Part shown: in pieces, positions 8,430 to 53,946 of the stretch
Layout of the letters: every line of letters starts with the position of its first letter
Position numbering within the stretch: position 1 is the stretch's first letter
Translations under genes and position numbers: made by a program
NCBI GenBank assembly: GCA_052327205.1
Contig: CM126215.1
Coordinates: 77,438,001-77,502,000, forward strand
DNA from: Somniosus microcephalus
Lineage: Eukaryota
DNA: 64,000 nt
Direction: 5' to 3'
The notes under the pieces: generated by a model
The model's database searches: none
What the model was told of the DNA's origin: nothing
Seen by the model: only the letters and a program-made list of their open reading frames with translations

Positions 8430-8605
8430 TGTAGTGTCCGTGTGTTGATAGAGACACTGAAGACAGGAGTTGGTTCATAGGTGTTTACTAAGCAAAGTCT
8501 GGAGGGGTACTAACGGATATAACACAATATACAGGCTTATATAGCCCGAGTGGCCATTACCGGCATTACAGCACACATGGGGCTCTTAAAGGCACATACA
8601 CTACA
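8430..8605 (-). repeat. 3' LTR of Gypsy element 1
   Basis: Direct repeat of 13104-13279; no mismatch seen by eye. Confidence 0.97.
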
Positions 8606-8698
8606 ATTCCTCCCCTTTTAGCTAACCAGTACATCATATTTTAAGTAATTATTAATCACATATTATAAGAAAAATAATATACACATTGCTGTAGTTAA

Positions 8699-11600
8699 TT
8701 AATTATAAGTCAGTCTCTCTGGAGGCTTCCTGACTCGGTCCGGATAACGCCTCAGTGGTGTAGTCGTTTCTGGTGGTGTAGTAGGTTCTTTTGGCAAGGC
8801 TGATTCGGCTTGAATGCCAGTGTCGGGTTCATCGGGTTCCAGTATCACTGGATCGGAGGTAGATATGGGTATCTCTACTTCATCGTTAGGCGTATAGAGT
8901 TGTGGTGTAGGTTGTCCCTTTTCGGATGACTCTATGATTTGGTCAGCATGGCGCCTTATTATGCTTTCTCCGATGTCCACGGTATACATCAGTGGTCCTA
9001 GTCGTGTGCAGATAGTTCCAGGCTGCCATTTCTCGGTACGGTAGTCCCGGGCCAAAACTTGTTGACCTATCTGGAAGGTTCTAGTTGGCCTTTCATTCAT
9101 GCCTTGAAACTGCCGGTTCTCCACGTCCCTTCTGATGTTGGGCTTGACCAAATCCAGCCGGCATCTTAGGTTTCTATTGAAGAACATCATGGCGGGAGTT
9201 TGGTTGGTAACCATATGTGTTGCATTCCTGTATGCGAACAAGAAGTTATCCACCTTGTGCTGAAGTTTTATGTCTTCATTACCCATGGCCTTTATGGCCT
9301 TCTTGAAGGTCTGGACAAACCTTTCAGCCAATCCATTGGTGGCGGGATGGTATGGGGCGGACGTGTAGTGCTTAACCCCATTGTTTTTTAAGAACTTCTT
9401 GAATTCTTCGGACACAAATTGCGGTCCATTATCAGAACAGATCTGTTCCGGCAGCCCATTCCTGGCAAATATGGTTCTTAATACTGTGATGGTTTTTTCC
9501 GTGGTGGTGGAGGACATCTTTATTACCTCCGGCCACTTGGAGTGTGCATGAACCGCGATTAAGAACATTGAGTCCATAAATGGACCAGCAAAGTCGATGT
9601 GTACCCTTTGCCAGGGAGATGAGGGCCACTCCCATGGATGTAGAGGGGCTTGTGGTGGAGCGTTTTGGACCTTCTGGCATCCTAGGCAGCTCTTGGTCAT
9701 TTCTTCGATGTCTCCATCGATACCTGGCCACCATACAAACGCCCTGGCTAGGTTCTTCATTTTCACTCCACCCAGATGCCCCTCGTGAAGCTCCTTTAGC
9801 ACTTTATCCTGGAGTTTGGGTGGAATCACCACTCTGGATCCACACATCAAGGTTCCTCGGCACACTGACAGCTGTTCTCTTCTTTGCGAGAATGCTGGCA
9901 ACAGTGGTTCGCCATGTGCTGGCCATCCCTTCACTGTTAAATCGTAGACCCGTGAGAGAGTCGGGTCATTTCTTGTCTCCCTTTCAATGGCAGAATTTAT
10001 TACCGGTAGACATTCCACTATGGTAGAGTGGAACATCTCCACTGGGTCTACTGTAGGTGCCTCTTCTACCGTTGGCAACGGTAGGCGCGATAAACCATCA
10101 GCATTCCCATGCTGTTTTGATCCTTTGTATTCTATGTTGTATTGGTGTGCCCCTAGAAAAAGGGACCACCTCTGTAGCCTTTGCGCTGTCATAATGGGAA
10201 CACCCTTTTTAGGGTTGAATATGGAGATGAGGGGTTGATGGTCAGTCAACAAGGTAAATTTTTGTCCGTGTAGGTAATGGTTGAATTTCTTCACTCCCCA
10301 TACCAGGCTGAGTGCTTCCCTGTCGATTTGGGCATAGTTACGCTCAGCTCAGTTCAATGAGCATGACGCAAAAGCTATCGGCCGTTCCGAGCCATCAGGG
10401 AATTTATGCGATAATACTGCTCCTATGCCGTAAGGGGATGCATCGCACGCCAGTCTGATTGGCAGTGATGGGTTGTAATGAGCCAAAACTTCTTCGGATG
10501 TGATTAAGTCTTTGCATTTATGGAAGGCACGCTTACAGTCTTCATTCCATTTCCAAATTACTCCTGTTTGTAGCAGTTCATTAAGAGGGTGTAGAAGAGT
10601 TGATAAGTTCGGTAAAAATTTATGATAGTAATTTATTAATCCCAGGAACGACCTTAATTGTGAAACATTTTCAGGTGCTGGGGCTTTTATGACCGCTTCA
10701 ATTTTTTCAGGTGACTTATGCAACCCTTCCTTATTTATTATGTGGCCACAATATGATATTTGATTTCGGAAAAATTCGCACTTGGGGCGATTTGTTCGTA
10801 GGCCCCGTTCTCTCAGCCTAGTGAGCACCTGCTCCAAATTGGCACGGTGCTCGCTGTCATTTTCTCCTGTTACAAGGATGTCGTCCAGGTAGCATTGAGT
10901 CCCCGGAATCCCTTGGCGGACTTGCTCCATAGCTCTTTGCCAGATAGCTGGAGCGGATGCTACTCCGAAAACTAGCCGATTGTACTGGTACAGACCTTTG
11001 TGTGTATTTATCGTGAGATATTTTTTAGAGGCCTCTTCAACCTCCATCTGTAGATATGCCTGTGCCAAGTCAATTTTGGTGAAACATTTCCCTCCGGATA
11101 GTGAGGCGAAAATATCTTCTATCCTCGGAAGAGGATACTGTACCGTGTGAAGGACCGGGTTTACCGTCACCTTGAAGTCTCCACAGATGCGAATTTTTCT
11201 CTGTTCTTCAGATTTATCATTATTCAATGCTTTCTTCATGACTGGAACGATGGGTGTTGCCCACTCGCTCCAATCTATTTTGGATAATACGCCTGCATTT
11301 TCCAAATTCTCCAGCTCTGCCTCGACTGCTGGACGAATTGCGTATGGCACTGGTCTTGCTTTAAAAAACTTGGGAATTGCTGCATCTTCCACTTTTATTG
11401 AGGCGGTGATGCCTTTCAAGGTTCCTAGTTTCTCTTGAAACACTTCTTTGGCGTTGGCCAAGATGTCTTTTAATCGTTCAGGTATGATGTCATCATCGTT
11501 TTTTTCTTACTGGTCACCGTCAGTGCCTGAATGGAGTGCCAGTCTAAACGTATTTTCCTGATCCATTCACGTCCTAACAGCGGTGGGCCACCATCTTGTA

Positions 11601-12686
11601 GAATGTATAAATACAACTTTTGTATTTCCTTGCCGTTGTATACAACAGGCACCTTTATTTTTCCTTTGGGGTATACTTTCTGCCCCGTATATGTTTTTAA
11701 GATAATGGATGTGTCTTTTAAAGGTATATGCGGAAATAGCCTCTCATAATCCCGTCGATTTATTACGGCCAGAGCTGATCCTGTATCTAGCTCCATTTTA
11801 ACTGGGGACTCTGCTATCGTGAGGGTAACCCAAATGGTCTGGTAATCATCTTTGGCAAGTACTTTATGTAATTTGAGACAGCTTAGTCTCTTGTTTTTGG
11901 AGTCGCTATCGCTCTTCTGGTCTTTGGAGCTACTTTCCGTCATCATTTGTACCTTTCTGTACTTTTCTTCATTGATTTTTTTTTCCTGTCTGTGGATTTA
12001 TTTTGTCCACATCGGCATACCCGTGCAATGTGTCCAATCTTTCCGCATTGCCTGCATGCTTTGTCCTTGAACCAGCAGTCCCTCTGGTTATGGGTGGATC
12101 TGCCGCAGCGATAACATCTTTCGAAACCCTGTGTCATTTCATGGGTGCCGAAGTCCTGTGTCTTCTGTTGTATCTCTGCAGCTCCTCTTGCTGCTGCTTC
12201 GTATGATACAGCCATACTGAAAGCCTTGTCCAGTGTTAAATCTTTTTCAGAAAGCAGCCTTTTTTGTGTTCCTTCACTTAAGAGACCGCAGATGAATTTG
12301 TCTCGAAGATAATCTGCTAGTCCTGCCCCGAATTGGCAGTGTTTTGATAGCTTTCTTAATTCGGTGAGGTAATCAGCGTTACTTTCATTCTTGTGTTGAT
12401 TTCTCTTGAAGAATTTGAATCATTCTGCTATCAGCAGCGGTGTTGGGTTTAAGTGCTCCTGCAGGGTATCAACAATTTTTTAAAAATCCTTGTCCTTTGG
12501 TTTGGCTGGAGTGATTAAATTTCGTAACAGCCCGTATGCCTTTGCGCCCATTAAATTCAGCAGTACTGAAGCTTTTTTTTCATCTTCTATTCCATTTGCA
12601 GTGCAATATACCTCTACTCATTCCACATATGTGGTCCAATCCTCTATTTCACTATCAAAAGCATCAATATTGCCAGACTTAGGCAT
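8699..12686 (-). pseudogene. gag-pol polyprotein (two CCHC knuckles, protease, RT, RNase H, integrase) with 3 stops and 2 frameshifts
   Basis: CYRCG..H..C and CRQCG..GH..C; LDTGSA; YLDD; CDASPYG; ADGLSR; HHCC; HIDFAG, SDNG, GLAER. Confidence 0.95.
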
Positions 12687-13103
12687 CTTAGAAAAGATAT
12701 GGCGCTTCCCGCGCTTTTCCGCCGCTGCTGCCGATGACAACGCTGTTTCCCGCGGTTTCTGTTCTTTTTTTATTTATTTATTTACAGTTGGAGACTCGTT
12801 CCCGCCGGACTTTCTCTCTAGGTCTGAACGCCGACCTGCTTGCAGCGCCGGCCGTCTCCCGAGTGCTCCCTCCCCGTTTGTTATTGCTTGCCTCTGATTT
12901 CGCTGCTTGTCCCAGCTGTAGAGCCAGCCGCTGGAGCCCCACCCTGACGCCCAGGAAGGATTAGCGCAGTACCTGCCACCAGCTTGGCCAGCTGGTGAAA
13001 CCACAGCTTCTTTCACTTCCTTGAGTCTTCTGGACGCCCGAGGAATCGATGTCCTTGAGGTGCTGCCGAATTGCAGGTAAGTCCGTTTCCACTTCGTCGC
13101 CAC

Positions 13104-13279
13104 TGTAGTGTCCGTGTGTTGATAGAGACACTGAAGACAGGAGTTGGTTCATAGGTGTTTACTAAGCAAAGTCTGGAGGGGTACTAACGGATATAACACA
13201 ATATACAGGCTTATATAGCCCGAGTGGCCATTACCGGCATTACAGCACACATGGGGCTCTTAAAGGCACATACACTACA
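13104..13279 (-). repeat. 5' LTR of Gypsy element 1
   Basis: Direct repeat of 8430-8605, adjacent to the PBS. Confidence 0.97.
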
Positions 13280-34194: not shown

Positions 34195-34504
34195 ATTGTG
34201 AATAGCTGGGGCCCAAGCACTGATCGCTGCGGTACCACACTAGTCACCACCTGCCACCCCAAAAAAGACCCATTTATTCCTACTCTCTGTTTCCTGTCTG
34301 TTAACCAATTTTGAATCCATGCCAGTATATTACCCCCAATCCCATGTGCTTTAATTTTGCACATTAACCTCTTATGTGGGACTTTATCAAAGGCCTTCTG
34401 AAAATCCAAATACACCACATCCACTGGTTCTCCCTCATCTATTCTACCAGTTACATCCTCAAAAAACTTCAGTAGGTTTGTCAAACACGATTTCCCTTTC
34501 ATAA

Positions 34505-37275
34505 CATACAGGGGTATTCAGTATTTAGGAAGGATCGACAAAAAAGAAAGGGAGGAGGGGTAGCATTGCTAGTAAAAGAGGGGATAAATGCAATTGAAAG
34601 GAAGGATATTAACTCAGTTAATACAGAATCTATATGGGTGGAGCTAAGAAATAGCGAGGGGCGAAAAACATTAATAGGAGTGGTATATAGGCCTCCAAAT
34701 AGTAAAATAGAGGTTAGGGAGGGCATCACGAGGGAAATTAGAGAAGCGTGCAATAAGAGCACAGCTGTCATCATAGGTGACTTTAACTTACATATAGATT
34801 GGACTAGCCTAATCAGTAAAAATAATGAGGAGGAGGAATTCCTTGAGTGTTTGAGGGATGGTTATCTGGATCAATATGTCGAGGAACCAACTCGGGAACA
34901 GGCTATATTGGACTGGGTACTGTGCAATGAGAAGGGACTAATCAGTAATCTTGTTGTACGGGGACCCTTGGGTCAGAGCGATCATAACATGATCGATTTC
35001 TCACTCGAAATGGAGAGCGAAGAAATTGACTCAGAGACTAAGGTCCTGAATTTAAACATGGGGAATTATGATGCCATGAGACGGGAACTGAGTAGGTCTG
35101 ATTGGACAACGTTCCTGGGAGGACTGGAGGTAGATAAACAATGGCAAACATTTAAAGATAGAATGACAAAATTGCAAAAATTGTTTATACCAATCTGGCA
35201 TAAAAGGAAATCTAAAAAGGTGACTCAACCGTGGATAACAGGGGAAATTAGAGACAGCATAAAATCCAAAGATAGGGCGTATAAAATAGCCAAAAAAAGC
35301 GCCAGAGCGGAAGATTGGGAACAGTTTAAGATAGAGCAAAGGAGGGCAAAGGGCATAATCAAGAGGGGCAAAATAGCTTACGAAAACAAGCTGGCGGAAA
35401 ATATAAAAACTAACTCCAAAAGCTTTTATAAGTATATCAAAAGGAAAAGACTGGTGAAAACCAAAGTTGGTCCATTGCAGTCAGATACGGGGGAATATAT
35501 AATGGGAAATAAGGAAATGGCAGATCAACTAAATGCATACTTTGGGTCAGTCTTTACGAAGGAAGACACAAAAAACCTCCCTGGGATATCGGGAAAAATA
35601 GGGACATTGGCAAAGGAGGAACTGACGCAAATCAATATCTCTAAGGATATGGTGTTAAGGAAGCTAAAGGGATTGAAGGTGGACAAATCCCCAGGGCCTG
35701 ATAACATGCATCCTAGGGTACTGAAGGAGGTGGCCCTAGAGATAGCGGATGCACTAAGGATGATTTTTCAGAATTCATTAGACTCGGGAACAGTGCCGAT
35801 GGATTGGAGGGTAGCTAACGTTACCCCACTATTCAAAAAGGGGGGTAGGGAAAAAGCAGGTAATTACAGACCTGTAAGCCTTACATCAGTTGTGGGCAAA
35901 ATGCTGGAGTCCATCATTAAGGATGAAATAGCGGAGCACTTAGCAAATGGGGACAGGATAGGACAGAGTCAACATGGATTTACAAAGGGTAAATCGTGCT
36001 TGACTAATCTATTGGAATTTTTTGAGGGAGTAACTGGTAGAATAGATGGGGGAGAGCCAGTAGATGTGGTGTACCTGGACTTCCAAAAGGCCTTCGATAA
36101 GGTCCCACATAAAAGATTAGCATGGAAAATTGAGGCTCATGGGATAAAGGGGAAAGTTTTGGCGTGGATAGGGAACTGGCTGTCAGATAGAAAACAGAGA
36201 GTTGGAATAAACGGCTCATTTTCTGAATGGCAGGCAGTAACAAGTGGGGTACCACAGGGATCTGTCCTGGGCCCCCAGCTGTTCACAATTTACATTAATG
36301 ACCTGGATCAGGGAGTCGGATGCAGCATTTCCAAATTTGCAGACGACACTAAACTAGGAGGGGGGGTGGGCTCAGAGGAAGAGACCAGGAAGCTCCAGAG
36401 CGATTTGGACAGACTGGGCGATTGGGCGGATAAATGGCAGATGCACTATAATGTGGACAAGTGCGAAGTTATCCACCTTGGGTGCAGGAACGGGAGGGCA
36501 AATTATTATTTAAATGGCAATAGATTGGGAGAGGGGGAAGTACAGAGAGACCTGGGTGTTCTTGCACACCAGTCACTGAAGGCGAGCATGCAGGTGCAAC
36601 AGGCGGTCAAGAAGGCAAACGGTATGCTGGCCTTCATAGCAAAAGGGTTAGAATACAGGAACAGGGATACCTTGCTGCAGCTGTACAGGGCACTGGTGAG
36701 ACCACACCTCGAGTACTGTGTACAGTTTTGGTCGCCTCATCTGAGGAAGGATGTTCTTGCCATGGAGGGGGTGCAGCGGCGATTCACCAGGCTGATACCA
36801 GGAATGGCGGGAATGACCTATGAGGAGAGACTATGTAGTTTAGGGATGTACACACTGGAGTTTAGAAGATTGAGAGGGGACCTCATAGAAGTGTATAAAA
36901 TTCTGACAGGTCTAGACAGACTGGATGCAGAAGGAATGTTTCCCTTGGCGGGTGAGAACAGAACTAGAGGACATAATTTAAGGATAAGGGCTAAACCATT
37001 TAGGACAGAGATGAGGGGGAATTTCTTCACTCAGAGAGTGGTGAACCTGTGGAACTCATTGCCACAGAGGGCAGTGTATGCCAGCTCATTAAATATATTT
37101 AAGAGGGAATTAGATATATTTCTACGGGCAAAAGGGGTTAAGGGTTACGGAGAGAAGGCGGGGACGGGATACTGAATTAAAGGATCAGCCATGATCTCAT
37201 TAAATGGCGGAGCAGGCACGAAGGGCCGAATGGCCTACTCCTGCTCCTATCTTCTATGTATCTATGTATCTATGT
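34505..37275 (+). mobile_element. young 5'-truncated CR1 LINE
   Basis: ATAA duplicated at 34501-34504 and 37276-37279; (TCTATGTA)n tail. Confidence 0.95.
34506..37175 (+). CDS. CR1 ORF2 (partial endonuclease + complete RT), uninterrupted but lacking its 5' start
   Basis: Frame open from the insertion boundary to TGA; GGGVA, YRPP, GDFN, SDHN, QGSVLGP, FADD. Confidence 0.9.
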   Translation: MQGYSVFRKDRQKRKGGGVALLVKEGINAIERKDINSVNTESIWVELRNSEGRKTLIGVVYRPPNSKIEVREGITREIREACNKSTAVIIGDFNLHIDWTSLISKNNEEEEFLECLRDGYLDQYVEEPTREQAILDWVLCNEKGLISNLVVRGPLGQSDHNMIDFSLEMESEEIDSETKVLNLNMGNYDAMRRELSRSDWTTFLGGLEVDKQWQTFKDRMTKLQKLFIPIWHKRKSKKVTQPWITGEIRDSIKSKDRAYKIAKKSARAEDWEQFKIEQRRAKGIIKRGKIAYENKLAENIKTNSKSFYKYIKRKRLVKTKVGPLQSDTGEYIMGNKEMADQLNAYFGSVFTKEDTKNLPGISGKIGTLAKEELTQINISKDMVLRKLKGLKVDKSPGPDNMHPRVLKEVALEIADALRMIFQNSLDSGTVPMDWRVANVTPLFKKGGREKAGNYRPVSLTSVVGKMLESIIKDEIAEHLANGDRIGQSQHGFTKGKSCLTNLLEFFEGVTGRIDGGEPVDVVYLDFQKAFDKVPHKRLAWKIEAHGIKGKVLAWIGNWLSDRKQRVGINGSFSEWQAVTSGVPQGSVLGPQLFTIYINDLDQGVGCSISKFADDTKLGGGVGSEEETRKLQSDLDRLGDWADKWQMHYNVDKCEVIHLGCRNGRANYYLNGNRLGEGEVQRDLGVLAHQSLKASMQVQQAVKKANGMLAFIAKGLEYRNRDTLLQLYRALVRPHLEYCVQFWSPHLRKDVLAMEGVQRRFTRLIPGMAGMTYEERLCSLGMYTLEFRRLRGDLIEVYKILTGLDRLDAEGMFPLAGENRTRGHNLRIRAKPFRTEMRGNFFTQRVVNLWNSLPQRAVYASSLNIFKRELDIFLRAKGVKGYGEKAGTGY

Positions 37276-41475: not shown

Positions 41476-42305
41476 TTCCCCCTAGTTCTCCCCGCCTATC
41501 TAGCTCAAATAACCTGTCCACTTAAAAAGAATGTAATCCCTTCATTATTTTAAACATCATAATCGTATCTTCCCCATACAAATCTCCTGTTCCCTAAGCC
41601 TATCCTGATACTTAAGGTCCCATAAACTTGGACCTTTTCCAGAGGTTCAATATCTCCCCTCCCCCACCAGGTGAGTGGACCAAAAATGAACACAGTATCT
41701 AGATGTGGCTGAACCAAAGCCTTGTACCAGGTAAGGATTGTATTTACAGTTTTATATTTAATTGTCCTAGCTATATATCCAACAGTCTATTCGCTTTTGC
41801 AACAACATGGATTACATAGGATATACGGCACCGAAACAGGCCATTCGGCCCAACCAGTACATGCTGGCGTTTATGCTCCACTCGAGCCTCCTCCCGTCTT
41901 TCCTCACCTAACTCTATCAGCGTAACCCTCTATTCCCGTTTCCCTCATATGCTTGTCTAGTCTCCCCTTAAATGCATCTATAATATTCACTTCAACCACT
42001 CCCTGTGGTAGCAAGTTCCACATTCTCACCACTCTTTGGGTAAAGAAGTTTCTTCTGAATTCCCTATTGGATTTCTTGGTGACTATCTTATATTGATGGC
42101 CTCTAGTTATGCTCTTCCCCACGAGTGGAAAGATTCTCTCTGTATCCACTCTATCAAAATCTTTTATAATTTTAAAGACCTCTATTAGGTCACCCCTCAG
42201 TCTTCTTTTTTCAAGAGAAAAGAGACCCAGACTGTTCATCCTTTCCTGATATTTATACCCTCACATTTCTGGTATCATCCTTGTAAATCTCCTCTACACC
42301 CTCTC

Positions 42306-42560
42306 TGTAAAGTCTGTGGGTTGTACAGTTAATAACGACACAGACTTCAGGAATAACAAACAAACAGGTCTTTACTATTCGAAGGTCAGGGCGAATCTGC
42401 CCAAGGAATCATGCCACAACACTTATATACCGGTGTGGTCACCGTCGGTATTACAGTATACAGAAGCCAAACAAGTAGTGCCACACCTAAAGTAGTTCTC
42501 TTAAAGGTGAACGGTTACATACAATAGTTCTCTTAAAGGTAGACGGGTACATACACTACA
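42306..42560 (-). repeat. 3' LTR of element 2
   Basis: Direct repeat of 47323-47577; contains an internal ~32-bp tandem duplication. Confidence 0.97.
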
Positions 42561-42943
42561 ATCCTCCCTTTTTAGCTTATTACATACAGAGTCCCCATTA
42601 AACATAACATATCTTCAACTTCATATAAAACAATTTACAGACATAGTCTCAGTGGGAAACAGTTCACAGGTTCAGTCTCTGCAGGAACAGTTCACAGATT
42701 CAGTCTCTGATCTTGACTCGGTCCGAACAACATCTCTTTGGTGTAGGTGGTTCACATTGCTAGCGTGACTCCTCCATATCCTTTTCTTGACGTAACAGCT
42801 TGAACTTTCGTCCTGCTGAACCAGCAGTGCTGACTTTTACAACAACTGGGTTGCCTTGATATTTTCCTACTTCCCAACTGATTTAACTCCTTTCGTAGGG
42901 TCCACGCATGATCTGGTAGAAGTGATAATATTTGCGATAGTTA

Positions 42944-45900
42944 TCATCCTCTGCTTCTTCTTTTTCTTTTCTGCTTTTTGGAGACTCTCGGGGCTCCCTT
43001 ATCAGCTGCCAGCTGTAGCGCCACCAACTCTCTATGTTCCTTCGACTTTAAGTGCTTCATCCTGATTTCGGCACTTTGGGAGTTTTCATCACAAACTGGG
43101 CAGACCACATCCTCGTAATGTTCAGTGTCACTCAACAGGTCATGGTAATATTCGGGTTCGTCCTGAGTTAGGCCAGCGAGAGGGCCTTCTACTTCCTCCT
43201 TACCCATCTGAACGTTAGCTGACTGTGGTTCCTTCCCTAGACATCTTTCTTGAAAAGACTTCTTCATGCATTCATCTTCATTCCGCTCTTCCTGGGTTTC
43301 CTGCAAATCCTTCACTAATGACCTCATTTGTGATTTCAATACTTCCCCTTCCCTCGGGGATTGATTGATCGGGCTATTCAATCCTTCTACTGGAGCAGCT
43401 GTTTCAACATTCTGTTGTTCACATAGACGCGATTCAGCGTACTTTTGGCATCCCAGTAAAGTCTGTTTTGCAACCTCAGCTATTTCCCAAACTTTTGAGA
43501 GCTCTGAACTCCTTCCCGTTGAAGATTGAAGCTCGTGTTCAGATTGTTCCCATTGCAGAGTCTTTTCCCTCAGCATATGAAGGAGTTGGCTGACTGTTAA
43601 CTCTTCCACGGGAACACTGTGGATCAGAGTCTTCTCCATTTCATCCACCTTTTCCTCCAATGCTTCCACCCTCTGTTCCTCTTGTACTTTGGCTTTCAGC
43701 GCTCGGAAAAGTTGCGCCCTGATACTCTCTAGCTCATGTTCAGGGACCATTCTTACAGTCTCTGTGTTTCTTACAGTTTCCTTTTCTTCCACTGAAAGGA
43801 TTCCCAGTTGAATCTGTTCTTCAAGTTGTTGAACCTCGGACATTGCCGCCTCATATTTGTCTTGGGTTTCCTTCAATATTTTTATGAGTTCTTGGACATC
43901 TTGTCTTTCATGTTCTGCCATGTCTTTCACCTCTAATTTCTCATCTATGGATGGAACTTCTACCGATGAGTCTGTCTTGGCCTTGAGCTCATCAAGAATT
44001 TCCTGCAGCCTTTGGACTTCTTGCTCATGTTCAACCTTTAGTTGTTCATATGCTTCTACTGAAACTAGCTTTTCGGAGGTTGCCGAGTTAACCCCCTCCA
44101 GAATTGTAGCCTGGGCCTGTTCATACTGTTCTTTCAACTTCTCACACTCTGCTTGTAAGGAGTCGTAGAGAAGAACTGGAATAACATCCTGGCTTCCTGA
44201 AGATTCCTCTTCATTTGCTTCTTTCACAATTTCCTGTTGGAGTTCAGCCAAGGCTGCTATGCTATCTGCCTCTCGAAGTCTCACTGCCATCAAATCTTCT
44301 TTATTCTTGCAGTCTATCTCAGCCATTTTCCGATTACTTTCATTTAACTGAGTGAGTAGTCCCTTATTCTGGGCTGAGAGATATTGCACCTTCTCATGTA
44401 GACCATAGCACTCCTTCTCTGCTCGACATAGCTGGTTACTGCTGATTTGGTTCTGTGTTTCAAGTTCCAACATCCTTTGCTTAGCTTCTTTCAGTTTCGC
44501 CCCTATAAGCTCCTCTTGCAACATGACCACATTATTCACATCAGGTAAAGAAGCGTTTCTCTTTTCCATGTCCAAGATTTTTTCCTGCATATCTTTAAGT
44601 GCACACTGCGATTCAGCTTCTCTTAACCTTGCTTGCACTAGCTCCGTCTCCAATTGCAGAACAAAATCCTCAGTGTAGCGTGGTTTGCCTTTATGCTGTA
44701 TCTCTAGATCATGCAAATATTCTAACTCCTGAACATCATAAGGGAGATGTGATCGGTAATTGGTCACGATGGCTCTATGGTCGCTCTTTGCTTGAGCTAG
44801 CTGCCTCTGCTGTCTTTCCAGGTTCTCCCATTCGGTGTCCCAGAACTTTTCCATTGTTTTCATCTCTTGTACGAGACGGTAACCCAACTGTTCTAATTGT
44901 TGTCGTACTTTGAAATAAGTTTGAGTCCGAGTTCGGTGTTCTTCCGTCGTGGATAAGTCCTTAATTTGAACAGGCTCAGAATTCTCTGTCAAACTGGAGT
45001 TCTGCTCTGAAGCTTTATTCTTCTCGGTGGCATAAGCCTTTATGCATGTCTTCGTTTTCTCCACCATAGTCGGCAAGTTCATTTTAGCCTTGTCTTCCAT
45101 ATTTGAGTTGGTCTTATCGTCATCCGTTTCAGAATCTGAGCTGATAGCTTGCACCGAGTCCTCACTCATTATGGCTTTTAGATAGTGCCATTCCATGTCT
45201 ATTTTCTTGATCCACTCTCGTCCTAGAAGTGGTGGTCCTCCCTCAGATAATACGTACAAGTTCATTCTTGGGTGTTCTTTACCCCTATCTCTCACCTTGA
45301 CTCTTATCTTCCCCATGGGGTATACCTTATGCCCTGTGTATGTCTGCAATACGAACTTGGTATTTCTTAAGGGTATGTGAGAGAATAGCCGGTGGTAGTC
45401 TCTTCGATTTATGACTGATAGAGCTGATCCAGTGTCCAACTCCATTCTTACTTGGACTCCAGCTATTTTTAGTATGACCCAGATAGTTTGTAGGTCAGCT
45501 TCCTTACTCACATTGTGAATTCTCAGACTACCCAGCTCCTGGCTGTTTGGGTCTGAGTCTGAATTCTGTTCGTCTGAACTCTTCTCAGCCACCTTGTGTA
45601 CCTTGTTGTACTTTTCTTGTGGTGGCTTCCTTTGGCTGTTGGTCTTCTTCCCTGACTGGCACACCTTAGCGATGTGACCCAGTTTGCCACATTTCCTACA
45701 TTCTTGGTTCTTAAACCAGCATTGATTCTGGTCGTGTGTTGTCTTCCCACAACGATAGCATTTTGTTGTACTTGAGGTAATTTGGTCCACCCCAAGTGCC
45801 GCCGCCTTTAGCTGCATTTCCGCCGTTCCTTTCGCTGCGGCTTCGTGCGATGCGGCTATAAGGACAGCCCTGTCAAGTATGAGGTCGTTCTCTTCGAGTA

Positions 45901-46270
45901 GTCGCTTTTGTGTCCCTTCCTTGGACAATCCGCATACGAACTTGTCTCGCAGTGCCTCTGTCAGATTCCCTCCGAACTGGCAGCATTTCGCTAGCCTACG
46001 CAGTTCGACCAAATATTCCGCGTTGCTTTCGTCTTTCCGTTGCGTTCTTGCATAGAATTTGAATCGTTCAGCCAACATCAATGGTGTGGGGTTCAAGTGG
46101 TCCTTCAGAACAGCCACAATCCCTTCAAAAGTCTGATCCGCCGGTTTAGCTGGTGCTAGTAGATGCTTCAAGAGCCCGTATGTCTTTGCGCCCATCGAGT
46201 TTAGCAATGTTATCGCTTTGTCGTCTTCCTCTATTTTGTTGGCTTCACAATAGATCTCGATGCGTTCCAC
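42944..46270 (-). CDS. chimeric polyprotein: Gag + aspartic protease + EVI5-like + ANKRD24/RAI14-like + optineurin-like + DNAJC21-like segments
   Basis: 1108 open codons; two CCHC knuckles (aa 171-204), LDTGSA (aa 278-283), then host-like coiled coils and a C2H2 finger. Likely true ATG at 46330 is followed by TGA at codon 4. Confidence 0.85.
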   Translation of the reverse strand: MERIEIYCEANKIEEDDKAITLLNSMGAKTYGLLKHLLAPAKPADQTFEGIVAVLKDHLNPTPLMLAERFKFYARTQRKDESNAEYLVELRRLAKCCQFGGNLTEALRDKFVCGLSKEGTQKRLLEENDLILDRAVLIAASHEAAAKGTAEMQLKAAALGVDQITSSTTKCYRCGKTTHDQNQCWFKNQECRKCGKLGHIAKVCQSGKKTNSQRKPPQEKYNKVHKVAEKSSDEQNSDSDPNSQELGSLRIHNVSKEADLQTIWVILKIAGVQVRMELDTGSALSVINRRDYHRLFSHIPLRNTKFVLQTYTGHKVYPMGKIRVKVRDRGKEHPRMNLYVLSEGGPPLLGREWIKKIDMEWHYLKAIMSEDSVQAISSDSETDDDKTNSNMEDKAKMNLPTMVEKTKTCIKAYATEKNKASEQNSSLTENSEPVQIKDLSTTEEHRTRTQTYFKVRQQLEQLGYRLVQEMKTMEKFWDTEWENLERQQRQLAQAKSDHRAIVTNYRSHLPYDVQELEYLHDLEIQHKGKPRYTEDFVLQLETELVQARLREAESQCALKDMQEKILDMEKRNASLPDVNNVVMLQEELIGAKLKEAKQRMLELETQNQISSNQLCRAEKECYGLHEKVQYLSAQNKGLLTQLNESNRKMAEIDCKNKEDLMAVRLREADSIAALAELQQEIVKEANEEESSGSQDVIPVLLYDSLQAECEKLKEQYEQAQATILEGVNSATSEKLVSVEAYEQLKVEHEQEVQRLQEILDELKAKTDSSVEVPSIDEKLEVKDMAEHERQDVQELIKILKETQDKYEAAMSEVQQLEEQIQLGILSVEEKETVRNTETVRMVPEHELESIRAQLFRALKAKVQEEQRVEALEEKVDEMEKTLIHSVPVEELTVSQLLHMLREKTLQWEQSEHELQSSTGRSSELSKVWEIAEVAKQTLLGCQKYAESRLCEQQNVETAAPVEGLNSPINQSPREGEVLKSQMRSLVKDLQETQEERNEDECMKKSFQERCLGKEPQSANVQMGKEEVEGPLAGLTQDEPEYYHDLLSDTEHYEDVVCPVCDENSQSAEIRMKHLKSKEHRELVALQLAADKGAPRVSKKQKRKRRSRG

Positions 46271-46584
46271 GTACGTGGCCCAGTCTTCTATCTCAGAATT
46301 AAAATCGTTAATATTCCCTCACTTAGGCATCTTCCTTTCCTTGGGAGCAGCACAAGTATTTCTTTAAATTCTTATTTATTATTTATTTATTTCTAAGATG
46401 GCGGTTTTTCCCGCGAAAATGGCGGTTTCCCGCTCTTTCCTTCTCTCCCCGCCCCTTCAATGGCGGTCTCCCGCGTCTGTCGTCTTCTCCGCCTAATGGT
46501 GGCTTCCCGCGTTTCTTCCCTGGTGGGAGGGATACGCTTTCCCCACAGCGGACAGGTTCAGCCGCTGGGCTGGCTTCCGCACAG

Positions 46585-46810
46585 CTCCCCTTACTCGGCT
46601 CTGTCTTTCTCTCCCGCTCGCACGGCTCTACCGGCGCTGGGTACCCTGTTCACGGAGAACAGTTCAGCCGCTGGACTGGCTCTCGCGCAGCCTCTCTCCC
46701 CTTGCTCGGCTCTGTCTCTCTCTCCCCCACGTTCGGCTCTACCGGCGCTGGGTACCCCGTTGGTGGAGAACAGTTCAGCCGCTGGACTGGCTCTCGCGCA
46801 GCCTCCTTTA
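46585..46810. repeat. GC-rich tandem duplication, period 111 bp, in the leader of element 2
   Basis: GGAGAACAGTTCAGCCGCTGGACTGGCTCTCGCGCAGCCTC at 46654 and 46765. Confidence 0.9.
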
Positions 46811-47322
46811 GTCGGCTCTGCCTCTCCCACACGCCCGGCTCCCGTTCGCCTCCCAGCCCTCACGCAGTCCGGTGCTTCCCTCCCCGGCTGCGGCTGAGTT
46901 TCTCTCTTCCCGCGCCTGCTCCCGGTCTCAGCGCTTCGTGGCTTCGGTCGCTGCCCGGCTTTTCCCGCCGATCGCGGTCCGGCTATCTCACGACGCCGTC
47001 GGACCCGCCTTCCTGACCAGCTCTGCTCCCCCTCGACCGTGGTCGAGTGAAAACCCCTATCCTCCGGATTTCGTTACACCTTCCCCTACTCACAGTCTCC
47101 GCGGCCGCCTTGTTTCCTGCTGATCGGCTCACTCCGCACCGTGGTAGAAGGGTAGTCAGTGCCTGTTGCTGCTGGAAGCTTTTGTTGCTAAAGTCTTCCT
47201 CCTTTCTATTGCTGCAGCCTCGTGTTTTCTTCCAGCAGAACGACGAGGGCGGTTGCCTCTCTTCGACGCTCTTTAGTTGCTTTGGTAGTCTTGCCGCAGG
47301 GTACGATCGGACTTGTCGCCAC

Positions 47323-47577
47323 TGTAAAGTCTGTGGGTTGTACAGTTAATAACGACACAGACTTCAGGAATAACAAACAAACAGGTCTTTACTATTCGAA
47401 GGTCAGGGCGAATTTGCCCAAGGAATCATGCCACAACACTTATATACCGGTGTGGTCACCGTCGGTATTACAGTATACAGAAGCCAAACAAGTAGTGCCA
47501 CACCTAAAGTAGTTCTCTTAAAGGTGAACGGTTACATACAATAGTTCTCTTAAAGGTAGACGGGTACATACACTACA
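47323..47577 (-). repeat. 5' LTR of element 2
   Basis: Direct repeat of 42306-42560, adjacent to the PBS. Confidence 0.97.
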
Positions 47578-48194
47578 CTCTCCAGTCCCTCTATATCCTT
47601 TTTATAATATGGTGTCCAGAACTGCACGCAGTACTCTAAGTGTGGTCTAACCAAGGTTCGATACAGGTTTAGCATAACTTCCCTACTTTTCAATTCTATA
47701 CCTCTAGAAATAAACCCTAGTGCTTGGTTTGCTTTATTTATGGCCTTGCTAACTTGTGTTGCAACTTTTAATGATTTGTGTATTTGTACTCCTAGATCCC
47801 TTTGTTCCTCTACCCCATCCAGACTCGCACCCTCCAAGTGATAAGTGACCTCCCTATTCTTCCTACCAAAATGTAATACCTCACATTTATTTGTGTTGAA
47901 CTTCATTTGCCAATTATTTGCCCATTCCGCAAGTTTATTAATGTCCTCCTGTAATTTCTTGCAGTCCTCCTCAGTATTGATTATCCCCCCCAATTTGGTG
48001 TCATCTGAAAATTTAGAAATTGTGTTTTTGATTCCAAAGACTAAATCGTTAATGTAAATTGTGAACAGCAGTGGTCCCAGCACTGATCCTGGTGGAACAC
48101 CACTACCCACCTTCTGCCACTGTGAATAGCTACCCTTTACTCCTACTCTCTGCTTTCTGTCCTGAAGCCAGCCAGCAATCCATTCTGCTAGTAC

Positions 48195-50315
48195 GATAGC
48201 AAAATACTGCAGATGCTGGAAATCCGAAATAACAACAGGAAATGCTGGAAAAATTCAGCAGGTCAGGCAACATCCATGGAGAGAAAATAGAGTCAACGTT
48301 TCAGGTCAAACCCTTTGTCAAGACTGGAAAAGCACAGGAAATAAAATAGATTAAAAGCCCGGGCTGGGAGAGAACAAAAGAGAAGTGCAGAGACATTAAG
48401 AGGTATTCAAAACGAGACGAGATGGTGATAGGACTAGTGGAGACAAAAGATGGCTCTAGATTAGGTGTGAAATGTGCTGGCCGAATGGGAGACAGCTGCC
48501 ATGTGGGAGAGAAAAAAAGGTGGGGGGGGGGAAAGGGCCAAAACAAAGGTGTGGATAAAAAATAAGTAAAAATATAATGGGGGCCGAGGTTATGATCTGA
48601 AATTGTTGAACTCGATATTGAGTCCGGAAGGCTATAAAGTGCCTAATCGGAAGATAAGGTGCTGTTCCTCGAGCTTACGCTGAGCTTCTGTGGAACAATG
48701 CAAGAGCCCGAGTACAGTGAGGTCTGAGTGGGAATGGAGCGGTGAATTGAAATGACAGGCGACCGGAAGCTCGGGGTCATCCTTACGACTGAACGGAGGT
48801 ATTCCGCAAAGCGGTCACCCAATCTGCGTTTGGTCTCCCCAATGTAGAGGAGACCACATTGTGAGCAGCGAATACAGTATACTAGATTGCAAGAAGTACA
48901 AGTAAATCGCTGTTTCACCTGGAAGGGGTGTTTGGGGCCCTGGACAGTGGGAAGGGGGGAGGTATAAGGGCAGGTGTTGCATCTCCTGCGCTTGCACGGG
49001 AAGGTGCCGGGCGAAGGGGAAGGGGTGCTGGGGGTGATAGAGGAGTGGACTAGGGTGTCTCAGAGGGAGCGGTCCCTACGGAATGCTGAAAGGGGAGGGG
49101 AGGGGAAGATGCATTTGGTGGTGGGATCACTTTGGAGGTGGCGGAAATGGCGGAGGATGACCCGTTGAATGTGGAGGCTGGTGGGGTGAAAGGTGAGGAC
49201 AAGGGGAACCCTATCGTGGTTCCAGGAGGGAGGGGCAGGTGTGAGGGCAGAAGTGCGGGAGATAGAACGGACACGATCGAGGGCCGTGTCAACCACGGTA
49301 GAGGGGAATCCTCGGTTGAGGAAAAAGGAAGACATGTCGGAAGCACTGGTGTGGAAGGTGCCATCGTCAGAGCAGATGCGGCGGAGATGGAGACACTGGG
49401 AGAATGGAATAGAGTCCTTACAGGAGGCGGGGTGGGAGGAAGTGTAGTCCAGGTAGCTGTGGGAGTCAGTGGGCTTGTAGTGAATGTTGGTTAATAACCT
49501 ATCCCCAGAGATGGAGACGGAGAAGTTGAGGAAGGGAAGGGAAAAATCAGAGATGGACCATGTGAAGGTGAGGGAAGGGTGGAAATTGGAGGCAAAGTGA
49601 ATGAAATTGTCTAGTTCAGGGCGAGAGCAGGAAACGGCACCGATACAGTCATCAATGTACCGGAAAAAGAGGTGAGGGAGGGGACCCGAGTAGGACTGGA
49701 ACAAAGAGTGTTCCACATATCCCACGAAAAGGCAGGCATAGCTAGGACCCATGCGGGTACCCATGGCAACACCTTTGATTTGGAGGAAACGAGTGGAGTC
49801 AAAGGAGAAGTTGTTCAATGTGAGAACAAGTTCAGCCAGGCGGAAGAGGGTAGTGGTGGGTGGGGACTGGTCGGGCCTCTGTTCAAGGAAGAAGCGGAGC
49901 GCCTTCAGGCCACCCTGGTGGGGGATGGAGGTGTAGAGGGATTGTACGTCCATGGTGAAAAGGAGGCGGTTGGGGCTAGGAAACTGGAAACTGTTAAAGT
50001 GGTGGAGGGCGTCTGAAGAGTCGCGGATGTAGGTGGGAAGAGACTAGACAAGGGGAGAAAAGATAGAGTCGAGATAGGAAGAGATAAGGTCGGTGGGGCA
50101 AGAACAGGCTGAAACGATGGGTCTACCAGGGCAGTCCGGTTTGTAGATCTTGGGAAGGAGGTAGAAGCGGGCTGTGCGGGGTTGGGGAACTATGAGGTTG
50201 GTGGCCACGGGGGGAAGATCTCCAGAGGAGATGAGGTCAGTGACAGTCTTGGAAATGGTGGGTTGATGTTTGGTAGTGGGGTCATGGTCCAGGTGGAGGT
50301 AGGAGGAGGTGTCTT
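48195..50315 (-). mobile_element. 5'-truncated Penelope-like element (RT + GIY-YIG endonuclease), disrupted
   Basis: LLPKIYK..PGRPIVS, DVQSLYT, GVAMG, RYIDD (49060-49953); VYCIRC..CGLLYIGETKR (48643-48918). Confidence 0.93.
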
Positions 50316-51213: not shown

Positions 51214-53946
51214 TGTATTGATTTCTTTGTGGGTTCAATGACGAGACATTTATGAAAGAGAATGTCTTTTTAATCTAAAGTCTGTTCAACTCTTTATACA
51301 GCATTTACAGGAGACATCATGCCAGTGATGCATCTAGAACGAAACTGAAACTAAACCAAACTGCTTGTCTCTGTCACATGACCTCTGCTGGTCAGGCATA
51401 AGTAATCAATACCTGCAACTATGCTGGTAAGGCATGATAATCAAACAGGCAAATAACATCACTATTTGCTGATATCATTACATCTCCCTTTCTTAAAACA
51501 AAAGTATTTTACTTTTAACTAACAACATGTTTTCTTTGTATTAATCTGCATTTTAACTGTAACACTTAATGAACTTACATTAACATTATCATTATCAAGG
51601 TTTTTTAACCTTGCTTTGTGTGTTCACATGAAATATGTAAATGCACTAGAACTTGAAGAAAGAATAAGATAACATTACTTCCTTCTATAACAATAGTCCT
51701 TAAATTTGCTCAATGAGTCTCTCAGGAGGCTTCACGCGTCTTGAGGATTTTCTGATTGATTGTCCTTGAATCTGAGTTGTTGCCTCAGATGATGTGTTCT
51801 CAGCTGTGTGATCAGGTTGTTCAACAGTATCAGTCTCTTGACCTGCTGTGGCTGGTCCCATGAGAAGATCTCGGCGATTTCTTCTCAGAACAGCACCCTC
51901 ATCTGTCTGAATGGTGTATGATCTTGGTTGAACTTCACTCAGGACAGTTCCCTTCTGAGTCCATGTGTTTGTTTTGTCTTTGAACCTTACTTGGTCACCA
52001 GTGTGGAGTTCAGGTAGGTTTTGTGTTCCTCTGTCATAGTAGTACTTTTGCTTTTCTTTCTGTTGCTCTTTGAACTTCCTCACTTTCTCCCCCTCTTTTG
52101 TTTTCAGGAGGTTCTCCGGGATGGGTAGGTTTGACCTTAGCATACGTCCCATAAGGAGTTGGGCTGGTGACATACCACACTCGAGCGGCGTTGTGCGGTA
52201 TACAAGCATGCTCTGGTAGAAGTCAGTTCCACTGTCTTTTGCCTTGCACATCAGTCTTTTCACTGTGTTTGCGGGCTCTCCTGGGTCAACAGCTCTGGAC
52301 AACGTGTCTGCTGTATACATCAGCTTACCCGGTGTGTACGCAACATTCAGTTCATCATAGACTGTCTCTCCTTCGCTTTCCACAACGAGGACTCTCTTTA
52401 CCAGGTTCAGTCTCTCACAGGCTTTTAAACCTAGTATGGCTTGCACATCCTTTGGCACCACGATTAATGCTAGCGTGTGCTCTCTGTCCTTGTGTGTTAC
52501 TTTGACAATGCATCTTCCTTTCACTGGTATATCAGTACCTGTGTATCCTGTCACTTTCACTTTTATTCCATGTATCTTTGGTCTGGGTCTAATTTTCTTA
52601 AAATCAGTCTCTGATATCACATTAACTTGTGCTCCAGTATCCAATTTAAATGGAATATGTATGTCATTCACTTTTAGTGTCAACATCCAGTCTCTTTCTT
52701 CTTTTTTGTTTTCAGACACAACATCTACATAGAACTCCTCTATCTCACTTTCATCTACTGTATGGACCTTGCTTTGTTGCGCTTGGTTCTTGCAGCAACG
52801 GGCATAATGGTTGTTTTTGTTGCAACTATTGCATGTTTTACCATATGCTGGACACTTTCTTGGTGTATGCTGTGTACCGCATCGACTACATGACTTTCGA
52901 TTGTCCCTTTCATGTTTGTTCGCTGGCCACGCCTCTTTTTTCACATTGGCGCTCTTTTTGTTAACCGGTTTGTGTCCGTTCATTCTCACTGCATCCACGT
53001 TGCAGCTATTATCACTGAACAGCTCCTTTGCCTGCAACTTCACAGTCTCTGTAGCCCTACACAGTGCTATGGCTTTTCCCAGGTCTAGATCTTGCTCTCT
53101 TAGCAGTCTTTCCCTTAGACCATTATCTGGAATACCACACACCAGTCTGTCTTTTATCAGCGAGTCTGTCAGTCCCCCAAATTCACACGATTTGCTTCGG
53201 TTTCTCAGTTCAGTCACATACTGATCAATAGTCTCACCCGTTTTCTGTACACATGTGAAAAATCTGTGCCTCTCAAACGTCACGTTACGTTTAGGTATGC
53301 AGTAGGCCTCAAACTGTTCCATTATTTTATCTAGCTTCATTTTGTCTCCATCAGCAGCGAATGTGAAGTTATTATACACCTCCAGCGCTTCATCACCCAC
53401 GACATGTAAGAACAGTGACGATTTCCTTTTATTACTTTTCTCGTCAGCTCCGATTGCTGATAAATACAACCCCACACGTTGTTTGAATCTCCTCCAATTT
53501 TCAGCCACATTACCTGTCAACTGAAGCTTCGCCGGTGGGAGTAAACCTTCCATTTTTCACTTCGTTAGCTATTCTCTAATGGTAAGTAACAATGTTCTCT
53601 TTTGGCTTGCTAATTTGTGGAGAGCTGATTTAACTTCAGATTTTTTCTCTTCATCTCTTTCAGCCACTTCTGACACCATGTATTGATTTCTTTGTGGGTT
53701 CAATGACGAGACATTTATGAAAGAGAATGTCTTTTAATCTAAAGCTTGTTCAACTCTTTATACAGCATTTACAGGAGACATCATGCTAGTGATGCATCTA
53801 GAACAAAACTGAAACTAAACCAAACTGCTTGTCTCTGTCACATGACCTCTGCTGGTCAGCCATAAGTAATCAATACCTGCAACTATGCTGGTAAGGCATG
53901 ATAATCAAACAGGCAAATAACATCACTATTTGCTGATATCATTACA
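51214..53946 (-). mobile_element. internally deleted Gypsy LTR retrotransposon (element 3)
   Basis: LTRs 51214-51482 and 53679-53946 (about 5 substitutions + 1 indel by eye), TSD CACTC, PBS TGGTGTCAGAAGTGG (tRNA-Leu-like), PPT AAGAAAGGGAGA. Confidence 0.96.
51700..53553 (-). CDS. Gag-protease fused in frame to the RNase H tail and integrase C-terminus (617 aa)
   Basis: CSRCG..H..CPA..CNSC..NHY..C; LDTGAQ; YTPGK..ADTLSR; YRTTP...SPAQLLMGR; RRNRR; no YxDD. Confidence 0.9.
   Translation of the reverse strand: MEGLLPPAKLQLTGNVAENWRRFKQRVGLYLSAIGADEKSNKRKSSLFLHVVGDEALEVYNNFTFAADGDKMKLDKIMEQFEAYCIPKRNVTFERHRFFTCVQKTGETIDQYVTELRNRSKSCEFGGLTDSLIKDRLVCGIPDNGLRERLLREQDLDLGKAIALCRATETVKLQAKELFSDNSCNVDAVRMNGHKPVNKKSANVKKEAWPANKHERDNRKSCSRCGTQHTPRKCPAYGKTCNSCNKNNHYARCCKNQAQQSKVHTVDESEIEEFYVDVVSENKKEERDWMLTLKVNDIHIPFKLDTGAQVNVISETDFKKIRPRPKIHGIKVKVTGYTGTDIPVKGRCIVKVTHKDREHTLALIVVPKDVQAILGLKACERLNLVKRVLVVESEGETVYDELNVAYTPGKLMYTADTLSRAVDPGEPANTVKRLMCKAKDSGTDFYQSMLVYRTTPLECGMSPAQLLMGRMLRSNLPIPENLLKTKEGEKVRKFKEQQKEKQKYYYDRGTQNLPELHTGDQVRFKDKTNTWTQKGTVLSEVQPRSYTIQTDEGAVLRRNRRDLLMGPATAGQETDTVEQPDHTAENTSSEATTQIQGQSIRKSSRRVKPPERLIEQI

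What the first reader, a model, noticed from the sequence alone, without database searches (positions are those of the whole stretch)
43211..43606. Captured optineurin segment joined through a shared EE microhomology
aa 889-1020: EELTVSQLLHMLRE recalls OPTN EELTVSQLLLCLRE, and EGEVLKSQMRSLVKDLQE...ECMKKSFQERC recalls EVEALNLQVTSLFKELQE...ELMKKRLQEKC. The upstream block ends in VPVEE, so GAAGAG (43601-43606) could belong to both donors, the signature expected of RT template switching. OPTN is an autophagy receptor and innate-immune adaptor, so a decoy role is conceivable (speculative).
Basis: partly seen in the sequence, partly recalled or inferred. Interest (0 to 1): 0.8.

Follow-up and report, generated by a model that had tools for sequence, protein, structure and literature searches.

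The report
Retrotransposon that serially captured circular RNAs
The optineurin fragment is real but is only one passenger in a young, high-copy jumping gene of a shark-like genome that has swallowed pieces of five host RNAs one after another, two of them as exactly one lap around what look like circular RNAs, which suggests how circular RNAs get copied into genomes.

Summary
Observation confirmed: window 43191-43606 (minus strand) is a spliced optineurin (OPTN) segment, 82-90% identical to four of this genome's own OPTN exons, and it overlaps the upstream ANKRD24 segment by 7 nt (43600-43606). Interpretation partly wrong. The segment sits in a 5,272-bp non-autonomous Ty3/Gypsy element (gag-protease, no RT or integrase; LTRs differ at 1 of 255; at least 1,146 copies). 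Relatives in the genome show a ladder: autonomous parent, then STK10, then OPTN and DNAJC21-like, then ANKRD24, then EVI5. OPTN entered earlier through another, 9-nt overlap; the EE overlap marks the later ANKRD24 switch, which removed the 5' part of OPTN. Three inserts join a downstream splice donor exactly to an upstream acceptor (back-splice order), and the STK10 and EVI5 inserts start and end at the same point, one lap of the circle. Best reading: RT template-switched onto co-packaged circular RNAs and ran off after one lap. OPTN cargo evolves near neutrally (dN/dS 0.84; gag-protease 0.13) and lacks OPTN's known Pfam domains, so a decoy role is unlikely. The host circles themselves were not shown.

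The parts
47323..47577 (-). 5' LTR, 255 nt, TG...CA ends
   Evidence: 1 mismatch in 255 against the 3' LTR
47304..47321 (-). primer-binding-site-like stretch just inside the 5' LTR
   Evidence: read directly from the sequence; the tRNA was not identified
45170..46330 (-). gag (two zinc knuckles) and aspartic protease; in this copy the frame is broken by a stop at 46319-46321, the fourth codon after the ATG
   Evidence: dN/dS 0.13 against the EVI5-less relative
44799..45167 (-). STK10-derived remnant, 5' part (oldest capture; three host exons, internal deletions)
   Evidence: 72-84% to own STK10 exons; Pfam PKK E 0.001
44729..44807 (-). ANKRD24: last ~13 nt of one late exon plus the whole 66-nt last-but-one exon, ending at its splice donor
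44712..44728 (-). ANKRD24: start of the large upstream exon, joined at its splice acceptor (back-splice order, junction 44729|44728)
44226..44711 (-). EVI5 insert, 486 nt: one lap of an exon circle (back-splice junction 44696|44695), one internal deletion; youngest capture
   Evidence: 88-99% to five own exons; junction found 1,146 times
43600..44225 (-). ANKRD24 large exon, continued
   Evidence: 601 of 626 nt identical to the own gene
43600..43606 (-). 7-nt microhomology shared by ANKRD24 and OPTN (the EE junction)
43191..43606 (-). optineurin segment, four spliced exons in normal order
42944..43180 (-). C2H2 zinc-finger segment from a DNAJC21-like gene (gene name recalled), ending the frame
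   Evidence: two own exons on C1 match at 78 and 85%; the exon for its first part was not found
42769..42919 (-). STK10-derived remnant, 3' part (host sequence upstream of the 5' remnant); now after the stop codon
   Evidence: 73%
42561..42573 (-). polypurine tract
   Evidence: read directly from the sequence
42306..42560 (-). 3' LTR
42301..42305 (.). 5-bp target-site duplication, left copy
   Evidence: joint skipping 5,277 nt with 5 shared letters
47578..47582 (.). 5-bp target-site duplication, right copy

Best explanation
The element is a non-autonomous Ty3/Gypsy retrotransposon that makes its own Gag and protease and borrows RT and integrase from autonomous relatives. Its interior was built in steps by RT template switching between element RNA and host RNAs packaged in the same particle. 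Step 1: RT left the integrase tail of the parent, entered a 1,245-nt STK10 circle, copied one lap and rejoined the parent at the start of RT, replacing RT-RNase H-integrase. Step 2: OPTN (9- and 8-nt overlaps) and a DNAJC21-like piece (8-nt overlap at its 3' end) went into the STK10 part. Step 3: RT copying the OPTN part switched at the EE overlap onto an ANKRD24 circle, crossed its back-splice junction and returned to STK10, deleting the 5' part of OPTN. Step 4: one lap of an EVI5 circle went into ANKRD24. Shown: the pieces, their donors, splice-site-exact reversed junctions, overlaps, the intermediates and the parent. Inferred: that the templates were circular RNAs; that RNase H cutting behind RT forces run-off after one lap; and that cargo is kept mainly as open-frame filler (translation to the end of the RNA, perhaps genome length), not for OPTN function.
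For: Element anatomy. Parent with protease-RT-RNase H-integrase order, 97% identical to the STK10-only element over both flanks. STK10-only element: six exon matches of 99-100%, donor GT joined to upstream acceptor AG, both switch points in the same 11-nt stretch, which matches the parent's RT start at 11 of 11 and its integrase tail at 7 of 8. EVI5 insert starts 16 nt before a donor and ends within 1 nt of that start. ANKRD24 donor-to-upstream-acceptor join. Each tested STK10 and EVI5 exon is single in the 60 and 70 kb read. Intermediates: OPTN without ANKRD24, ANKRD24 without EVI5 (a 486-nt skip also in RNA and DNA runs). Identity to host falls with nesting depth: EVI5 88-99%, ANKRD24 96%, OPTN 82-90%, STK10 72-84%. 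Overlaps of 7-11 nt at six junctions. Purifying selection on gag-protease (0.13, p 1e-15), weak on whole cargo (0.59, p 0.011), none shown on OPTN. Sense-strand RNA over the whole element in one of two RNA runs.
Against: No host circle was observed: the circle-specific joint was not among the 15 joints shown (137 hidden). At the ANKRD24 reversed junction the donor's last five bases equal the last five intron bases before the acceptor, so a switch on unspliced RNA could mimic it. The ANKRD24 insert is a part lap only, and OPTN and DNAJC21-like pieces cross no reversed junction. The EVI5 switch points share only about 4 nt with the target. Whole-cargo dN/dS below 1 and the DNAJC21-like part at 0.29 (p 0.018) leave room for some protein-level role. 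dN/dS values are pairwise counts on single copies with a transition bias fixed at 3.
Confidence: 0.8

Rival explanations
1. Same template-switch mechanism, but the reversed exon order came from linear RNAs with repeated exons (trans-splicing, or a tandem exon duplication now lost), not from circles.
For: Such RNAs give the same splice-exact junction; no circle was seen in RNA.
Against: Does not predict that start and end coincide: they fall in the same 11-nt stretch of a 1,245-nt STK10 unit and within 1 nt for EVI5. Exons are single in the host loci read. Three independent genes would need it.
Confidence: 0.1
2. The EE junction is a later microhomology deletion inside an element that first held a full ANKRD24 lap plus the longer OPTN piece, not the point of a switch onto ANKRD24 RNA.
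For: STK10 and EVI5 entered as full laps; microhomology deletions are common in this family, e.g. the STK10-OPTN deletion in L044.
Against: A search with ANKRD24 residues just beyond EE gave 2 matches among 150 scored candidates, the host gene and one distant (31%) match, and no element copy.
Confidence: 0.25
3. The cargo protein, released from Gag by the protease, is a selected coiled-coil decoy that dampens OPTN-dependent autophagy or innate sensing, or binds Rab-pathway proteins, and so helps the element.
For: The frame stayed open through at least five captures; 24 of 29 young copies have an open cargo (set biased, chosen by likeness to the cargo). STK10, ANKRD24, EVI5 and OPTN pieces are all coiled-coil-like.
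Against: OPTN piece dN/dS 0.84 against host, 0.74 between lineages; known domains absent; 5' half lost; sister families thrive with unrelated cargo such as titin-like Ig domains.
Confidence: 0.08
4. The mosaic was made at DNA level (double-strand-break repair between element DNA and retrocopies or cDNA).
For: Microhomology also marks end-joining repair.
Against: All pieces are spliced, sense to the element, and lack introns; one-lap geometry has no DNA-level counterpart unless circles were first reverse-transcribed.
Confidence: 0.04

Closest known systems
LTR-mediated retrocopies (Tan et al. 2016, PMC5131818; passages and section 7 read)
   Same: Host mRNA pieces replace internal ORFs between LTRs; microsimilarity at junctions (median 6 bp there, 7-11 nt at six junctions here); multi-gene chimeras, including a mouse case with four genes; further rounds as non-autonomous elements.
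   Different: The word 'circular' does not occur in that main text. Here the inserts are in back-splice order, two are one lap, all are in frame with a conserved gag-protease, the family has over 1,100 copies, and the parent and each intermediate survive. Its supplements were not read.
circRNA-derived pseudogenes, mouse circRFWD2 (Dong et al. 2016, PMC4897178; whole main text read)
   Same: Reversed exon-exon junction, no poly(A) tail, association with LTR elements (33 copies, MMERVK10C-int marked in the figure legend).
   Different: That paper calls the mechanism mysterious and starts from circles seen in RNA. Here the junctions to the element, the parent and the one-lap geometry are resolved, three circles sit in one lineage, but the circles were not seen in RNA. 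Its supplements were not read.
TR-GAG non-autonomous LTR elements of plants (described in PMC9784723; passages read)
   Same: Two LTRs around gag, no RT or integrase, still mobile.
   Different: Animal Gypsy derivative with protease and a long in-frame host mosaic.
Host-gene capture by crocodilian ERVs, KIT-ligand and nectin3 (PMC4299795; passages read)
   Same: Non-mammalian vertebrate LTR elements carrying host mRNA and multiplying.
   Different: Single whole ORFs, KIT-ligand under purifying selection; here nested fragments, near-neutral OPTN, reversed exon order.

Membership tests
Ty3/Gypsy LTR retrotransposon lineage | paired LTRs with TG...CA ends and short target-site duplication | tested here: met
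Ty3/Gypsy LTR retrotransposon lineage | pol order protease, RT, RNase H, integrase | tested here: met
   met by the autonomous relatives (link to the STK10-only stage); the window element itself has only gag-protease, so it is a non-autonomous derivative
Ty3/Gypsy LTR retrotransposon lineage | placement by RT phylogeny in a named clade | not tested
   no tree was built
LTR-mediated retrocopy (Tan 2016) | intronless host mRNA piece replacing internal ORFs between two LTRs | tested here: met
LTR-mediated retrocopy (Tan 2016) | microsimilarity at switch points beyond chance | tested here: met
   7-11 nt at six junctions; about 4 nt at EVI5; the 5' junction of the DNAJC21-like piece is unresolved
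LTR-mediated retrocopy (Tan 2016) | re-amplified and transcribed as one unit | tested here: met
   1,146 copies of one junction; RNA over all 30 bins, mostly from relatives 90-95% alike; one full-length transcript not shown
circRNA-derived pseudogene (Dong 2016) | non-colinear exon junction at annotated splice sites | tested here: met
   ANKRD24 and EVI5 in the window, STK10 in relatives; AG and GT at all six sites
circRNA-derived pseudogene (Dong 2016) | the parent circular RNA is expressed | tested here: inconclusive
   joint not among rows shown; element transcripts carry the same junctions
TR-GAG | LTRs flanking gag as the only coding content | tested here: not met
   protease and about 740 aa of cargo follow gag; works like one, is not one
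Functional optineurin mimic | retains NEMO-type N-terminal, CC2-LZ/ubiquitin-binding or zinc-finger domain of OPTN | tested here: not met
Functional optineurin mimic | purifying selection on the captured piece | tested here: not met
   dN/dS 0.84, p 0.35, 115 codons
Functional optineurin mimic | binds OPTN, Rab8 or TBK1 complexes | not tested
   no complex prediction was run; an OPTN-derived coiled coil would tend to pass by likeness

The most novel reading that the evidence does not exclude
Circular RNAs are preferred passengers of Gypsy particles in this lineage, and RT with its RNase H copies them as single laps, so that a gag-protease-only element family repeatedly refills the space of its lost pol with open-frame circle copies (STK10, ANKRD24, EVI5, perhaps titin-like and others). 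The family would be a fossil record of germline circular RNAs and a natural demonstration of how circRNA retrotransposition works.
Probability: 0.6. Interest if true: 0.88.

Novelty: new variant of a known kind. Interest (0 to 1): 0.76.

Why it matters
How circular RNAs are copied into genomes was left open by the paper that described circRNA-derived pseudogenes (PMC4897178). This family supplies a resolved natural case: parent, entry and exit overlaps, back-splice junctions and one-lap length, seen twice, with a third partial lap. It makes a sharp prediction (insert start equals insert end on the circle) that can be tested across the many sister families here and on the mouse circRFWD2 copies. 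It also shows LTR elements as a large-scale exon shuffler in a cartilaginous-fish-like genome, spreading over a thousand in-frame chimeras of five host genes, which will confuse gene annotation and RNA-seq for those genes. The OPTN junction alone would be an ordinary instance of a known mechanism.

Tried and rejected
PDB sequence search of the cargo: no hit. Homologue search of cargo residues 1-180: none of 355 candidates passed; phmmer over 1.84 billion representatives gave 1 spurious repeat hit; two ESM Atlas searches returned generic coiled coils. These pieces were resolved only through Pfam PKK and the own genome. PF21884 led to a different J-protein gene (read as DNAJC2, recalled), and 50 kb fetched there matched no cargo. 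Two guessed patterns for host EVI5 found nothing; it was found through TBC exons and a donor-site pattern. Ten other hits of that pattern were CR1-type remnants. The upstream exon of the DNAJC21-like gene was not in 100 kb read, which holds a 500-N gap just upstream of the matched exon. The dN/dS rows for OPTN and ANKRD24, and for OPTN, used wrong frames and are discarded; others (ANKRD24, element pairs; OPTN) replace them. Sequencing-run search: no RNA holder listed; two raw RNA runs were offered by species label and laid. Genome-wide counts of the STK10 back-splice junction, the EE junction and the unreplaced OPTN junction were not obtained. Earlier-findings look-ups were empty. Literature: nine searches; searches returned no paper, and no listing described a shark LTR family with host cargo or one-lap circle capture; subscription papers are largely outside the library. 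Rejected: OPTN captured at EE (older relatives say otherwise); assembly artefact (1,146 copies, joints in independent runs); genomic exon duplication (single exons in the spans read).

Full report
Observation. The finding lies in a 1,124-codon stop-to-stop frame on the minus strand, 42944-46318. Residues 905-1043 align to shark optineurin at 56%, E 2e-37, and all 9 hits of that part of the cargo were shark optineurins. The genome (6.45 Gb, nearest homologues in sharks) holds its own OPTN gene on C17; the window matches four consecutive exons with introns removed, at 82-90% for the three that BLAST scored. The block upstream matches the own ANKRD24-like gene on C13 at 601 of 626 nt (database names vary between ANKRD24-like and ankycorbin). 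The two donors overlap by 7 nt at 43600-43606, inside an exon of each; chance is 5e-4 to 8e-4.

The element. LTRs of 255 nt at 42306-42560 and 47323-47577 differ at one base and are flanked by a 5-bp duplication. Pfam finds zinc knuckles and an aspartic protease, and no RT or integrase. This copy has a stop at the fourth codon. All 40 scored matches of the cargo were 99-100% identical, out of 4,306 candidates, and one insert-specific junction occurs 1,146 times exactly, control 0. Of 29 other copies read, 24 have an open cargo frame and 15 an open gag-protease (the set is biased towards intact cargo, and two copies were only partly aligned in gag). In a run from an organism that holds the family, RNA covers all 30 bins, with 10- to 30-fold strand bias over most of the interior in the direction expected for element-sense RNA if the library is of the usual stranded kind; the second run is not clearly biased, and 19,026 of 29,803 laid reads in the first are only 90-95% alike, so they report relatives more than this subfamily.

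The cargo map. After the protease come STK10 (44799-45167), ANKRD24 late exons (44729-44807), the start of the ANKRD24 large exon (44712-44728), EVI5 (44226-44711), the ANKRD24 large exon continued (43600-44225), OPTN (43191-43606), a zinc-finger piece (42944-43180) and, after the stop, STK10 again (42769-42919). Host loci were found for all five. The names STK10 (against SLK), EVI5 and DNAJC21 are recalled from sequence; the tools gave PKK, TBC-domain exons 13 kb upstream of the EVI5 exons on the same strand and weak C2H2 hits.

The ladder of intermediates. Autonomous relatives have protease-RT-RNase H-integrase order; five of ten loci continue into RT, and one is 97% identical to the STK10-only element on both sides of the insert. 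STK10-only elements were read. Elements with STK10, a six-exon OPTN piece and the zinc finger but no ANKRD24 are nine of ten loci (165 pattern matches, one of them the host exon). An element with ANKRD24 but no EVI5 lies on C13, and the 486-nt skip appears in both RNA and both DNA runs. Identity to host falls in the same order as nesting depth. Hence OPTN entered by a 9-nt overlap with STK10 and left by an 8-nt one, and the EE overlap is where the later ANKRD24 insert meets OPTN already in the element. No element with ANKRD24 beyond EE appeared among 150 scored candidates, so a direct switch is favoured over a later deletion, without excluding it.

Back-splice order and one lap. In the STK10-only element six exon matches of 99-100% begin inside one exon, run to a GT donor three exons on, jump back to the AG acceptor of the exon before the first, and end where they began. 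The unit is 1,245 nt, a multiple of three with no stop. Both switch points fall in one 11-nt stretch that matches the parent's RT start at 11 of 11 and its integrase tail at 7 of 8. The EVI5 insert begins 16 nt before a GT donor, jumps 45 kb back to an AG acceptor, passes five exons with one internal deletion, and ends within 1 nt of its start. ANKRD24 joins the donor of its last-but-one exon to the acceptor of the large upstream exon, a part lap. All six splice sites are canonical and the four STK10 and EVI5 exons tested are single in the spans read; 27 of 29 copies keep each reversed junction exactly and 2 differ by one base. At the STK10 and EVI5 reversed junctions only the AG is shared, so microhomology does not explain them; at ANKRD24 five or six bases are shared, which weakens that case.

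Mechanism. From established LTR biology, host RNAs are co-packaged and RT switches template at short overlaps. The inferred addition is that on a circle RNase H destroys the template behind RT, so RT runs off on returning to its entry point and must re-prime with that same sequence, which explains why both STK10 junctions use one motif and why EVI5 is one lap. Gag-protease is conserved (dN/dS 0.13, p 1e-15), whole cargo weakly (0.59, p 0.011), and OPTN not detectably (0.84, p 0.35). I infer selection on the element for an open frame to the end of the RNA, and perhaps for length (5,272 nt against 5,258 for a parent), with the identity of the filler mattering little: sisters carry titin-like Ig domains instead. 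The decoy reading gets under 0.1.

What is not shown. The host circles were not seen: one search lists 15 joints and hides 137, and element transcripts carry the same junctions. Selection tests are pairwise. No tree was built. Copy numbers of the earlier stages are unknown beyond lower bounds (76 of 77 matches share the element-type motif, of which 27 loci were read; 150 of 150 scored PKK matches).

Comparison. The capture mechanism is that of Tan et al. 2016 (PMC5131818, passages and section 7 read); reversed junctions near LTRs are known from Dong et al. 2016 (PMC4897178, main text read), which leaves the mechanism open. Supplements of both were not read and could hold junction detail. Nine searches found no report of this family or of one-lap capture, within the library's limits. 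Verdict: a real feature, a new variant of a known kind, interest 0.76, nearly all of it from the circle captures beside the finding.

Noticed in passing
L048-L058, L155, L158: Sister elements with the same gag-protease and STK10 piece carry several titin-like Ig domains (best PDB match titin, E 7e-31). Whether the insert is in back-splice order was not tested.
   Followed up: partly
L049, L052, L056 (between protease and STK10 piece); L157: Further unidentified in-frame inserts: a zinc-finger-like segment of about 150 aa in three sisters, and another coiled-coil piece in L157.
   Followed up: no
L036, host OPTN exons near C17:85,884,790 and 85,885,360: The host OPTN gene as assembled has two apparent extra single bases in A runs that shift the frame against shark homologues and against element copies; probably assembly errors.
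   Followed up: partly
L100-L108: The longer OPTN piece of the older family includes the stretch I recall as the LC3-interacting motif; the window family has lost it.
   Followed up: no
L042 3070-7961 and L044: An ANKRD24-bearing element sits antisense in an intron of the ANKRD24 gene itself, and an OPTN-bearing relative lies just downstream; probably chance, given the family's density.
   Followed up: partly
window 8428-13279: A second Gypsy-type element with an identical 178-nt direct repeat at both ends and gag, protease, RT and integrase split over four frames; 65% alike to the finding's gag-protease.
   Followed up: partly
window 51700-53556: 618-aa frame of another LTR element in which gag-protease appears joined to an integrase tail with no cargo (read by eye).
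   Followed up: no
window 34476-37175; 444-1514; 49060-50043: An 899-aa endonuclease-RT frame of CR1 type, a Harbinger-like transposase frame and a Penelope-like RT frame (labels recalled, not tested).
   Followed up: no
window 46556-46805: Two to three tandem copies of a ~110-nt unit in the element's 5' untranslated region; copy number varies among relatives.
   Followed up: no
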